Shown here: in pieces, positions 40,587 through 42,373 of the stretch
Position numbering within the stretch: position 1 is the stretch's first letter
How the letters are laid out: every line of letters begins with the position of its first letter
Assembly (NCBI GenBank): GCA_951406725.2
Contig: OX597827.1
Coordinates: 58,776,001-58,840,000, forward strand
Length of the DNA: 64,000 bases
Direction: 5' to 3'
DNA from: Octopus vulgaris
Lineage: Eukaryota
Position numbers: made by a program

Positions 40587-40649
<63 letters not shown>

Positions 40650-41161
40650 ACTTCATTATAAAGTCATCGTATACAACACTATTCATAGAGAATGGAAACT
40701 ATTGCTTGCAGTTCAAAACATAATTATAGACGATGCTATACATGCAAATATCACAAAAAAAAACACAGTTTAAATACTTACTGGAGTAGGGACTGTGCCT
40801 GTTAACTTTTTGCAAAGCTAGACAAAAAAATAAGAGTTTTCACATTAATGTTACTGTGTAGATGCATGCAATATTTTAAAGGTAGTATAAACAAAGTTTT
40901 TACGCAAACGTATGAATGCATATACATGCATTCATACGCACATGATGTTTTTGCTTCATTTTTAACACGTAATACTGAAATAGTGGAGAAGATATGATAT
41001 TGCTGTGGGCTCGCCCTAGGCAAGAAGTTAAAAATTTTTTTGTCTATGACACTACATGAACCCTAAGTAAGGCATGTGTAAAATTTGAATGAAATTGGTT
41101 GTGTAGTTCTCAAGTTTTAGGGATTCACACAGACAGACAGACAGACACACATTCTCAGTTT

Positions 41162-41196
<35 letters not shown>

Positions 41197-42373
41197 ATAC
41201 TAGCAGTATCGTCCGGCGTTGCTCGGGTTTGTAAGGGAAATAACTATAAAGCATTTTTAGAGAGTTATAGCCAAAAAATAGCAAAAAAATGGAAAAAAAA
41301 TTATGATAAATTTTTTTTGAGAGTTAAAAAAGGTCGAGTTGTGTCCCCTAGACAGTCTGTGGTTTGTGTTTCTGATTCTCGACCCCATGTCGAATTTATC
41401 GATTTTTTTCAGAACTGGGGGAACTTTTCAAAATTTTCGCTGCGTTAGTTTTGAATTATGACATTGGGCTATGTGTGTGTCAAGTTTCATCAGAATCGGT
41501 TGAAAGCCGTGGTCAGGGTGAGGGTACAACCAAACAGACACACAGAAACACACACAGACAAACTGCCGTTTATATAGAGAGAGATAAAGACTTCATTATA
41601 AAGTCATCGTATACAACACTGCACGTAGAGAATGGAAACTATTGCATGCAGTTCAAAACATAATTATAGACGATACTATACATAAAAATAACACAAAAAA
41701 CACAGTTCAAATACTTACTCCGGCAAGACTATTTCCTGTTAAATCTTCGCAAACCTAGACAAAAGAAAAAATTAACAGCTTTCACATTAATGTCGTTGTG
41801 TAGATGCATACAATATTTCAAAGGTAGTATAAACAAAGTTTTTACGCGAGCATATGAATGCATATACATACATGCATTCATACGCACATGAATACACACA
41901 GACACATATATAATTTATATACATAATAAAAAAAAGAATAAATGCGCCCTTTTAAAGCCTAGGCAGGTTCAAGGGTCCGGTTTCCTGGCTTCAATGGCGT
42001 ATGTGTTCCCCAGCTGGACGGGACGCCAGTCCATCGCAGCGTTACTCATTTTTGCCAGCTGAGTGGACTGGAACAACGTGAAATGAAGTGTTTTGCTCAA
42101 GAACTCAACGCGTCGCCCGGTCCAGGAATCGAAACCATAATCTTACGATCATGATGCTGACACCCTAACCACTAAGCCACGCACTTCCACACACATATAT
42201 ATATATATATACAGGAGTGGCTGTGTGGTAAGTAGCTTGCTAACCAACCACATGGTTACGGGTTCAGTCCCACTGTGTGGCATCTTGGGCAAGTGTCTTC
42301 TGCTATAGCCCCGGGCCGACCAATGCCTTGTGTGTGGAATTTGGTAGACGGAAACTGGAAGAAGCCTGTCGTA

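What the first reader, a model, noticed from the sequence alone, without database searches (positions are those of the whole stretch)
40646..41890. Tandem-duplicated, rapidly diverged Cys microexons could make a switchable surface loop on a secreted ferritin
Seen: a ~300-bp segment occurs twice (40646-~40945 and 41585-~41890). Each copy holds a 36-nt phase-0 exon with intact tctag and gtaagt sites, encoding VCEDLTGNSLAG and LCKKLTGTVPTP. The exons differ at 15/36 nt ungapped and 8/12 aa. The ~130 nt of intron downstream of the donor differ at only about 10 positions plus an indel. Length, frame, the Cys and LTG are kept, while charge flips (ED versus KK). Known: this position is the BC loop on the outside of the ferritin 24-mer, where gastropod yolk ferritin has a Cys-containing insertion. 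Inference: diversifying selection on a cassette or mutually exclusive exon pair. All four splice choices are in frame, so acidic and basic isoforms could differ in disulfide partners or receptor binding and co-assemble in one cage.
Basis: partly seen in the sequence, partly recalled or inferred. Interest (0 to 1): 0.85.

Follow-up and report, generated by a model that had tools for sequence, protein, structure and literature searches.

The report
Duplicated cysteine microexons in octopus ferritin
Two tiny neighbouring exons of an octopus secreted-ferritin gene are real, diverged copies of one another, but they are most likely always used together to build one cysteine-stapled surface loop, not swapped as a switch.

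Summary
A ~300-bp unit occurs twice (40647-40945 and 41587-41891, minus strand). Each copy carries a 36-nt phase-0 microexon with tctag/gtaagt sites. The exons differ at 15 of 36 nt, the flanking intron at 21 of 260 aligned nt (Fisher p=1e-6). The unit has no third copy in the window, and a transposon sits between the two copies.

The gene is a seven-exon, signal-peptide-bearing ferritin of the molluscan "yolk/secreted" type (52977-31007, minus strand). The switch interpretation is not supported. The NCBI Octopus sinensis model P0001 matches the window at 199 of 207 residues and carries both microexons in series at exactly these junctions. Cephalopod relatives all have an even number of loop cysteines, two or four. 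In four of the six these are the only cysteines outside the apparent signal peptide. The microexons are as conserved between the two octopus sequences (23 of 24 residues) as the rest of the protein. None of the three standard enforcers of mutual exclusion that I tested is present.

Best reading: constitutive tandem microexons encoding a 20-residue, probably disulfide-stapled, B-C loop extension. How the exons became more diverged than their introns stays open. A 14-nt selector/docking-like complementarity keeps a small chance of regulated skipping. No RNA-seq could be consulted.

The parts
52884..52977 (-). Coding exon 1: ATG at 52977-52975, a hydrophobic signal-peptide-like N-terminus, ending in phase 1 before gtaagt
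   Evidence: tblastn with P0001 gives 31 of 31 identical; sequence read
49217..49293 (-). Coding exon 1b (start of helix A)
   Evidence: 22 of 25 residues identical to P0001 33-57; ttttcag acceptor, gtaagt donor
43529..43675 (-). Coding exon 2 (helix B; ends in an N-V-T sequon). Its donor is gtaggt, the only donor in the gene that is not gtaagt
   Evidence: 49 of 49 identical to P0001 58-106. Pfam PF00210 at 29.9 bits, cut-off 24.5
43490..43528 (-). In-frame read-through of the exon-2 donor. It resembles the coding continuation of the O. vulgaris paralog P0002 but contains a stop: a possible intronised relic of an older Cys-bearing exon-2 extension
   Evidence: BLOSUM62 score 17, 4 of 13 identical. 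Reached by 3 of 6011 13-codon windows of the same intron region and 24 of 127,924 in the whole window
41587..41891 (-). Duplicated unit, copy A (upstream in the gene)
41719..41754 (-). Microexon A, 36 nt, phase 0, acidic, one Cys
   Evidence: Equals P0001 residues 107-118, 12 of 12. P0003 from another organism joins exon 2 to an A-like segment and then reads V-S-I, which is the translation of this donor
41162..41586 (.). Interspersed repeat (transposon copy) lying between the two units, abutting the 3' end of unit A
   Evidence: 93.6% identical over 425 nt to 29418-29839
40647..40945 (-). Duplicated unit, copy B (downstream in the gene)
40782..40817 (-). Microexon B, 36 nt, phase 0, basic, one Cys
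   Evidence: Equals P0001 residues 119-130, 11 of 12. Closest to the second-Cys segment of relatives (score 30 vs P0171, 21 vs P0170)
41832..41845 (-). 14-nt 'selector-like' element in the upstream flank of A
40890..40903 (-). The identical 14-nt element in the upstream flank of B
40437..40450 (-). Single 'docking-like' site, outside the duplicated unit in the B-to-exon-3 intron. It is perfectly complementary to both 14-nt elements
   Evidence: duplex -17.8/-17.9 kcal/mol. 1 of 300 Markov shuffles reaches 14 nt. These are the only 3 occurrences (up to 1 mismatch) in the window, against 0.10 expected
37375..37479 (-). Coding exon 3 (start of helix C)
   Evidence: 31 of 35 identical to P0001 131-165
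31007..31147 (-). Last coding exon (helices D and E); stop TAA at 31009-31007
   Evidence: 43 of 43 identical to P0001 166-208, then three more codons (YQH) before the stop

Best explanation
The two 36-nt segments are real, constitutively co-spliced microexons of a secreted, yolk-type H-like ferritin gene of an octopus close to Octopus sinensis. Together they encode 24 residues that form most of this lineage's insertion in the loop between helices B and C. That loop is 20 residues longer than in ordinary ferritins. By recall of ferritin structures, it lies on the outer surface next to the two-fold axis.

Each microexon contributes one cysteine. The pair (12 residues apart) most likely forms a disulfide, within the loop or across the dimer-related loops, that staples a short helix spanning the exon junction. 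This step is inferred, not shown.

The pair arose by local duplication of a ~300-bp block (exon plus about 130 nt of intron on each side), later split by a transposon insertion. B keeps the family's second-Cys signature and is probably the parental type. A is probably the copy that was remodelled faster than its neutral flanks into an acidic, first-Cys-like segment. It may have replaced an older Cys-bearing extension of exon 2 that survives only as an in-frame relic with a stop. This history is also inferred.

The charge difference therefore reflects two specialised halves of one loop, not two isoforms.
For: - Use of both exons: P0001 (NCBI model, O. sinensis) maps exon by exon onto the window with contiguous boundaries 58-106 / 107-118 / 119-130 / 131-165, and 199 of 207 residues are identical.
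- Use of A in another organism: P0003 joins exon 2 to an A-like segment.
- Family pattern: in 153 ferritin relatives the R96..E147 span is 31-32 residues in 81, and 52 in P0001. All six cephalopod relatives have 2 or 4 loop Cys. In P0006, P0007, P0170 and P0171 they are the only Cys outside the apparent signal peptide.
- Resemblance to relatives: A resembles the relatives' first-Cys segments and B their second-Cys segments. Mean 12-residue BLOSUM scores are 16.5 vs 10.5 for A and 4.3 vs 13.3 for B.
- Structure: the AF2 model of P0001 (pLDDT 91.4) has helix B at 69-95, coil, a short helix at 114-124 across the A|B junction (118|119), and helix C at 132-160. Block pLDDT in the insertion is 73-85. 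Foldseek gives ferritins at TMt 0.83-0.86.
- Conservation: the microexons differ at 1 of 24 residues against 7 of 183 elsewhere.
- Splice sites: both microexons have canonical, strong-looking sites like the other exons.
- Duplication. Transposon in the spacer. Relic.
Against: - P0001 is an automatic gene model. I could not see its RNA-seq support or other isoforms: its 90% cluster has 2 members, but the listing of cluster members was off.
- No coordinates were returned for the AF2 model, so the Cys-Cys distance was not measured. P0001 also has a third Cys (C31) near the mature N-terminus, which could pair with a loop Cys.
- 15 changes in 36 nt against 8% in the flanks is extreme for a recent copy. 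NG86 gives dN 0.63 and dS 0.55, so there is no clean dN>dS signal, though 12 codons give little power.
- A scores higher against first-Cys segments of distant relatives (25 vs P0007) than against B over 12 residues (18). That fits an old A just as well as a remodelled copy.
- The 14-nt complementarity is the kind of element that regulates exon choice elsewhere.
Confidence: 0.6

Rival explanations
1. The two microexons are cassette or mutually exclusive exons, giving acidic, basic, double and loop-less isoforms that co-assemble. Choice might be steered by competition of the two duplicated 14-nt elements for one downstream docking site.
For: - All combinations are in frame.
- The exons are homologous and of equal length and phase.
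- A 14-nt element upstream of each exon is perfectly complementary to a single site at 40450-40437. 1 of 300 shuffles reaches this length, and each duplex is about -18 kcal/mol.
- This is the arrangement that partial duplication of a stem-loop is proposed to create (PMC6071210, abstract and Discussion read).
Against: - The only transcript model reachable has both exons.
- Paired loop Cys are a family constant.
- There is no excess between-species change in the exons.
- The intervening intron is 901 nt, all sites are GT-AG, and both exons are multiples of 3. So no steric, spliceosome-type or NMD enforcement exists.
- The selectors lie upstream of the exons with the dock downstream. Pairing would loop out B, or A plus B, and can never give a B-only form.
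- The double-skipped loop would be 28 residues, shorter than the 31-32 of ordinary ferritins.
Confidence: 0.12
2. Same function (both exons constitutive) but a different history. A and B are an old pair, already distinct in the cephalopod ancestor. The near-identical flanks come from later homogenisation (gene conversion or unequal exchange), with selection rejecting tracts that enter the exons. No burst of positive selection is needed.
For: - A leans towards first-Cys segments and B towards second-Cys segments of relatives only 40-47% identical overall.
- The O. bimaculoides models P0008 and P0175 differ by 10 residues inserted exactly before the 'LC' of the second-Cys segment. This suggests the same intron position in a distant paralog.
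- P0001 and P0002 are mosaic: signal peptide and exon 2 are 90-92% identical, exon 3 about 37%, exon 4 64%. So exchange between family members seems to happen.
- The sharp return to identity at the donor fits selection acting at exon boundaries.
Against: - Conversion needs pre-existing homology, which old diverged introns and 58%-identical 36-nt exons would not provide.
- Flank differences are spread evenly rather than in blocks.
- Over the first 8 residues A and B are closer to each other (score 25) than to any class of relatives' segments (11-17).
- P0002 seems to hold only one clear A/B-type segment, about equally like A (22) and B (28).
Confidence: 0.22
3. One of the two segments is not a functional exon (a pseudo-exon carried by a gene-model artefact), or the repeat is merely a piece of an interspersed element.
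For: The surrounding introns are full of interspersed repeats. P0001 is an automatic model.
Against: - The unit has only these two copies in 64 kb, whereas true repeats nearby have up to about 10.
- Both segments keep an open frame, the Cys, strong splice sites and 23 of 24 residues across two octopus sequences.
- B matches the second-Cys segments of distant relatives along its full length.
Confidence: 0.04

Closest known systems
Molluscan secreted ('yolk') ferritin: Lymnaea and Biomphalaria yolk ferritin, bivalve 'yolk ferritin-like', chiton secreted-type ferritin
   Same: - Signal-peptide-like N-terminus.
- No IRE found (0 Rfam hits in the window).
- Cys-containing insertion in the middle of the B-C loop.
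- Literature, passages read: PMC10799875 reports a 42-aa insertion, a signal peptide and no IRE. PMC6351634 reports an insertion of about 40 aa in the loop of secreted-type ferritins.
- Bivalve proteins named 'yolk ferritin-like' are among the best profile hits.
   Different: - The insertion here is only about 20 residues with 2 Cys, against about 35-45 residues with 3-5 Cys (usually 4) in the bivalve, gastropod and chiton proteins examined.
- Here it is encoded by two duplicated microexons.
- The ferroxidase-type columns (E47, Y54, E81/E82, H85, E147, Q178 of P0001) are conserved. PMC6351634 says metal ligands are replaced in its chiton secreted form.
- A yolk role is untested.
Insect secreted ferritin (Trichoplusia ni HCH/LCH heteropolymer)
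   Same: A secreted ferritin shell stabilised by intra- and inter-subunit disulfides (passages of PMC5751084 citing Hamburger et al. 2005; PMC11719527).
   Different: The insect disulfide cysteines described there are N-terminal LCH residues, not a B-C loop pair. No insect secreted ferritin appeared among the 60 PDB sequences listed of 213 matched. There is no evidence here for a heteropolymer.
Tandem exon duplications giving mutually exclusive exons with docking/selector RNA pairing (Dscam, 14-3-3zeta, srp; model of PMC6071210)
   Same: Adjacent homologous exons of equal length and phase, duplicated together with intron. One arm of a potential stem was duplicated and the other arm is single.
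   Different: The only transcript model includes both exons. The selectors are on the 'wrong' side for activating one exon. No mechanism forbids double inclusion. The exons are microexons (36 nt).
Genes with exons more diverged than introns (conotoxin and snake-venom toxin genes; recalled, no paper read)
   Same: Coding segment hyperdiverged between copies while the flanking intron stays similar; the product is secreted and Cys-framed.
   Different: Here the comparison is between two exons inside one gene. Between-species conservation of the exons is normal.

Membership tests
Ferritin (Pfam PF00210), eukaryotic H-type | Sequence match to the family profile | tested here: met
   Exon 2 alone scores 29.9 bits against a cut-off of 24.5. 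P0001 carries PF00210. 213 PDB ferritin sequences match at E<=1e-10.
Ferritin (Pfam PF00210), eukaryotic H-type | Four-helix bundle plus a short fifth helix | tested here: met
   In the AF2 model of the ortholog P0001, helices 34-62, 69-95, 132-160, 164-195 and 199-207 are predicted. Foldseek TMt is 0.83-0.86 to ferritins. The test was on P0001, not on a joined window model.
Ferritin (Pfam PF00210), eukaryotic H-type | Ferroxidase-centre ligands present (identity of the ligands recalled) | tested here: met
   E47, Y54, E82, H85 and E147 are invariant or nearly so, and E81 and Q178 nearly invariant, in alignments A2 and A5. The window exons are identical to P0001 at these positions.
Molluscan secreted / yolk-type ferritin | N-terminal signal peptide | tested here: inconclusive
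   A hydrophobic stretch follows a basic N-terminus in exon 1. No signal-peptide predictor was available, so this was judged by eye.
Molluscan secreted / yolk-type ferritin | Insertion in the B-C loop with cysteines | tested here: met
   39 residues where PDB ferritins have 19. The span is 52 residues against the modal 31-32. There are 2 Cys. The insertion is shorter than the 42 aa of snail yolk ferritin (PMC10799875 passage).
Molluscan secreted / yolk-type ferritin | No iron-responsive element in the 5' UTR | tested here: inconclusive
   0 Rfam matches at gathering threshold in the whole window, which includes 11 kb upstream of the ATG. The transcription start and any upstream non-coding exon are unknown.
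Molluscan secreted / yolk-type ferritin | Deposition in yolk / vitellogenic expression | not testable with these tools
   No expression data were available.
Tandem exon duplication | Adjacent homologous exons with homologous flanks in one gene | tested here: met
Mutually exclusive exon pair | Exactly one of the exons in each transcript | tested here: not met
   The one transcript model available (P0001, a close relative's ortholog) holds both. No reads were seen, so rarer isoforms are not excluded.
Mutually exclusive exon pair | A mechanism that forbids double inclusion or double skipping (steric, U2/U12, frame/NMD) | tested here: not met
   The A-to-B intron is 901 nt, all sites are GT-AG, and both exons are 36 nt in phase 0.
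Mutually exclusive exon pair | Competing selector/docking RNA structures | tested here: inconclusive
   A 14-nt perfect complementarity is shared by both copies. The geometry loops exons out rather than activating one. No cross-species check of conservation was possible.

The most novel reading that the evidence does not exclude
The duplication copied one arm of an intronic stem along with the microexon. Two identical selectors (41845-41832 and 40903-40890) now compete for one docking site (40450-40437). Pairing loops out B alone or A plus B. The octopus can then tune, by tissue or condition, how many Cys-bearing segments (two, one or none) decorate the outer surface of a secreted ferritin cage. 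This would be a structural RNA switch caught soon after its birth.
Probability: 0.1. Interest if true: 0.7.

Novelty: new member of a known kind. Interest (0 to 1): 0.35.

Why it matters
This is a clean, datable example of how a protein surface loop is built and remodelled by duplicating a microexon together with its splice signals. The copies' flanks act as an internal neutral yardstick, and they show that the coding 36 nt changed about five times faster.

It places cephalopod secreted ferritins in the molluscan yolk-ferritin lineage with a shortened two-Cys loop. It also suggests that the variable Cys-rich loop of this family (20 to about 58 extra residues among octopus paralogs) evolves by exon-level gain and loss.

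For annotation, it warns against reading in-frame duplicated microexons as isoform switches without junction data. It does not by itself open a long-standing question.

Tried and rejected
- Compensated-frameshift explanation for the exon's 3' half. This was a by-eye realignment on the shared AGTC of the sequences. It still needs 7 mismatches plus 2 indels in 19 columns, so I rejected it.
- dN/dS between A and B. NG86 gives 0.63/0.55. With 12 codons and multi-hit codons this is uninformative. Among the 4 conserved codons there is 1 synonymous change.
- Other relics of the long P0002 insertion in the window. tblastn found none at E<1 apart from the exon-2 read-through.
- Third copies of the unit or of the 14-mer in the window: none.
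- Other genes in the window: 14 long stop-to-stop ORFs gave no Pfam hit, and Rfam gave 0 hits.
- The listing of cluster members, to see other members or isoforms of the P0001 cluster, was switched off.
- Literature. 'ferritin + octopus + secreted ferritin' returned 3 papers, none on the octopus gene. 'yolk ferritin + cephalopod' returned 2 unrelated papers. I found no description of these microexons. Subscription journals and supplements were not searchable.
- Complex prediction, the second structure job and the protein atlas were not used. No claim here depends on them.
- The spliced model of the window gene was not joined, translated as a whole, searched or folded. Every window-based search was exon by exon. 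Whole-protein analyses used the database protein P0001, which differs from the window at 8 compared residues.
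Full report
**Observation.**
On the minus strand the window holds two copies of a ~300-bp unit, 41891-41587 (A) and 40945-40647 (B). The repeat finder reports the two flank blocks at 92% (114 nt) and 88% (112 nt). blastn aligns the whole units at 85% over 308 columns. 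Each unit contains a 36-nt open segment, 41754-41719 (VCEDLTGNSLAG) and 40817-40782 (LCKKLTGTVPTP). Each is preceded by a pyrimidine tract and ...gtctag, and followed by gtaagtatt.

In the MAFFT alignment A1 the exons differ at 15 of 36 nt and 8 of 12 residues. The upstream flank differs at 11 of 128 aligned nt plus 9 gap columns. The downstream flank differs at 10 of 132 plus one 3-nt indel. Exon against pooled flanks (15/36 vs 21/260) gives a one-sided Fisher p of 1.0e-6, and the maximum of a sliding 36-column count lies on the exon. Divergence is uneven inside the exon: 4 of the first 20 nt differ, all charge- or residue-changing, and 11 of the last 16.

The unit is not itself an interspersed repeat as far as 64 kb can show. 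It has only these two copies, whereas repeats just upstream of copy A have about 10 or more copies.

**The gene.**
tblastn with database ferritins and direct reading of the junctions give one gene on the minus strand:
- exon 1: 52977-52884 (ATG, signal-peptide-like hydrophobic N-terminus)
- exon 1b: 49293-49217
- exon 2: 43675-43529
- microexon A: 41754-41719
- microexon B: 40817-40782
- exon 3: 37479-37375
- exon 4: 31147-31007 (TAA stop)

All introns are GT-AG. All searches with window sequence were exon by exon. Whole-protein work used the database protein P0001.

Exon 2 alone passes the Pfam ferritin threshold (29.9 bits against a cut-off of 24.5). No other Pfam domain was found in 14 long ORFs elsewhere. 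No Rfam family reached gathering score anywhere in the window, so no IRE was found. The window has no N and is clearly octopod, not human.

**Are both microexons used?**
The exon-2 peptide retrieved three longer proteins. P0001 (NCBI 'soma ferritin-like', Octopus sinensis, 208 aa) maps onto the window exon by exon with contiguous boundaries, and 199 of 207 compared residues are identical:
- exon 2 = residues 58-106 (49 of 49 identical)
- A = 107-118 (12 of 12)
- B = 119-130 (11 of 12)
- exon 3 = 131-165 (31 of 35)

So that model uses exactly the junctions exon2>A>B>exon3.

P0003 is an 88-residue fragment from an unnamed source. It joins exon 2 to an A-like segment and then ends in V-S-I, which is what the donor gtaagtatttga of microexon A gives if read through. 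So the A acceptor is used in a second organism. In that organism the 3' half of A is different and one codon shorter.

I could not inspect further isoforms, because the listing of cluster members was off. No read data exist in these tools.

**Family context.**
An exhaustive phmmer search with P0001 found 1087 relatives at E<=0.001, with the best 150 returned. Among the 153 proteins then held, the span from R96 to E147 of P0001 is 31 or 32 residues in 81. It is 52 in P0001 and 67-77 with 3-5 Cys (usually 4) in a set that a profile search named as bivalve 'yolk ferritin-like', chiton and sea-slug proteins.

PDB ferritins align to P0001 38-97 and 137-206, leaving 39 residues against their 19. That is a 20-residue insertion between helices B and C.

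Passages I read agree with this placement. PMC10799875 says snail yolk ferritins have a signal peptide, no IRE and a 42-aa insertion. PMC6351634 says secreted-type mollusc ferritins have an insertion of about 40 residues in the middle of the loop.

The closest relatives (40-47% identical) are from Argonauta hians, O. bimaculoides and three unnamed transcript-like records. All have a first Cys in an acidic/polar context and a second Cys in an 'LCK.ITG'-like context 9-12 residues later. After discounting Cys inside the apparent signal peptide, P0006, P0007, P0170 and P0171 have exactly these two Cys and no others. P0008 and P0155 have four, all in the loop. A paired-Cys loop is thus a constant of the group. 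The O. vulgaris paralog P0002 has a 58-residue, 7-Cys version of the loop.

**Structure.**
AlphaFold2 on P0001 with a 40-sequence alignment gave mean pLDDT 91.4. Helix B is 69-95, then coil 96-113, a short helix 114-124 that spans the A|B junction at 118|119, coil again, and helix C 132-160. Block pLDDT across the insertion is 85, 73 and 77. Foldseek places the model among ferritins (TMt 0.83-0.86). No coordinates are returned, so the Cys108-Cys120 distance could not be measured. The disulfide is an inference from Cys parity in a secreted protein.

**Switch or constitutive?**
I tested three of the standard ways of enforcing mutual exclusion, and all are absent:
- The A-to-B intron is 901 nt, so there is no steric block.
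- All sites are U2-type GT-AG.
- Both exons are multiples of three, so double inclusion or double skipping is not punished by a frameshift.

Splice sites of A and B look as strong as those of the constitutive exons. Between the window and P0001 the microexons changed at 1 of 24 residues against 7 of 183 elsewhere, so there is no sign of continuing diversification. Skipping both would give a 28-residue span, shorter than in any ordinary ferritin class seen. Skipping one would break the Cys pair. I therefore read the pair as constitutive.

One result points the other way. A 14-nt element lies 73-86 nt upstream of both microexons (41845-41832 and 40903-40890). It is perfectly complementary to a single site at 40450-40437, outside the duplicated unit.
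- Duplex energy is -17.8/-17.9 kcal/mol.
- Only 1 of 300 first-order Markov shuffles of the rest of the pre-mRNA gives a complement of 14 nt to sequence shared by both flanks.
- These are the only three occurrences in the window at up to 1 mismatch, against 0.10 expected.

This is the pattern that Ivanov and Pervouchine propose arises when one arm of a stem is duplicated with an exon (PMC6071210, abstract and Discussion read). The geometry would loop out B, or A plus B, rather than select one exon. The test was also post hoc. It keeps a roughly 10% chance of regulated skipping alive.

**How did exon divergence outrun the introns?**
A transposon copy (41162-41586, 93.6% identical to 29418-29839) fills two thirds of the spacer and abuts the end of unit A. 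So the copies were once much closer together. The flank divergence (8%) is of the same order as the divergence between the two transposon copies (6.4%).

Two histories fit.

(i) A fairly recent duplication of a second-Cys-type unit, followed by faster-than-neutral remodelling of one copy, probably A.
- Both exons carry Cys at exon position 2.
- B matches distant second-Cys segments along its whole length (score 30 to P0171, 21 to P0170).
- P0002's one clear A/B-type segment is about equally like A and B (22 vs 28).
- Over the first 8 residues A and B are closer to each other (25) than to relatives' segments (11-17).
- The in-frame read-through of the exon-2 donor (43528-43490) resembles the coding continuation of P0002, including its first-Cys segment. 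The BLOSUM score is 17, reached by 3 of 6011 windows of that intron region. The window sequence carries a stop and no Cys there, as if an older first-Cys segment had been lost and A had taken over its role.

(ii) An old A/B pair whose flanks were later homogenised.
- A leans to first-Cys and B to second-Cys segments of distant relatives (12-residue means 16.5/10.5 and 4.3/13.3).
- The O. bimaculoides models P0008 and P0175 differ by 10 residues inserted exactly before the second-Cys 'LC', which hints at the same intron position in a distant paralog.
- P0001 and P0002 are mosaically similar.

dN/dS has no power here. I favour (i) at roughly 2:1. Only orthologous genomic loci can decide, and no eukaryotic genome collection was available.

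**Verdict.**
This is a genuine, statistically solid tandem microexon duplication with exon-over-intron divergence, in an octopus secreted yolk-type ferritin. The 'switchable loop' is not supported. The best reading is a constitutive two-exon, two-Cys surface loop. It is a new, tidy member of known kinds (tandem exon duplication; molluscan secreted ferritin with a Cys-bearing loop insertion), of moderate interest.

**Unchecked:**
- transcript reads
- other isoforms in the P0001 cluster
- any octopod genomic DNA
- paper supplements (the alignment figures and supplements of PMC6351634 and PMC10799875 may show the insertion and its Cys)
- the closed metagenome and viral collections, which are not relevant here

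Noticed in passing
window 43490-43528 (-): The codons read straight through the exon-2 donor resemble the coding continuation of the O. vulgaris paralog P0002 (4 of 13 identical, score 17, empirical p about 5e-4). In the window they include a stop and lack the Cys. This may be an intronised remnant of a longer exon 2. This donor is also the only gtaggt in a gene of gtaagt donors.
   Followed up: partly
window 41832-41845, 40890-40903 and 40437-40450: A 14-nt element in both duplicated upstream flanks is perfectly complementary to one site downstream of microexon B. This is a selector/docking-like arrangement apparently created by the duplication.
   Followed up: partly
window 41850-41885 and 40909-40938: Each unit begins (5' edge in gene orientation) with an imperfect ~30-36-nt palindrome (hairpin), conserved in both copies. 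It may mark the duplication breakpoint.
   Followed up: no
window 41162-41586 and 29418-29839; partial at 11461-11535: An interspersed repeat of about 425 bp with a (TA/TACA)n tail. One copy splits the two microexon units; the copies are 93.6% identical. The 216 bp at 40946-41161 next to it has no other copy in the window.
   Followed up: partly
window 43529-43540 (-), end of exon 2: Exon 2 ends in an N-V-T sequon directly before microexon A. P0002 has N-I-S there, and several relatives have N-x-T at or next to the first loop Cys. The loop may be N-glycosylated.
   Followed up: no
P0001 vs P0002: The O. sinensis and O. vulgaris proteins are mosaically related: signal peptide 90%, exon 2 92%, exon 1b about 64%, exon 3 about 37%, exon 4 64%. 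The loops are very different (2 vs 7 Cys). This suggests paralogs with exchange of their 5' parts.
   Followed up: no
P0008 vs P0175 (O. bimaculoides): Two models of one gene differ by 10 residues beginning V-S inserted between the first-Cys segment and the 'LC' of the second. This looks like use of a downstream donor or an older mis-model, and it marks an intron at the same place as the A|B boundary.
   Followed up: no
window 31007-31018 (-): The window's last exon runs three codons (YQH) beyond the end of P0001 before TAA, so the two sequences differ in their stop position.
   Followed up: no
window 43860-44000 and many other places: There are long (ATT)n/(ATC)n and (TA)n microsatellites. 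Most stop-to-stop ORFs of 130 aa or more in the window lie in such low-complexity sequence, and 14 tested had no Pfam match.
   Followed up: partly
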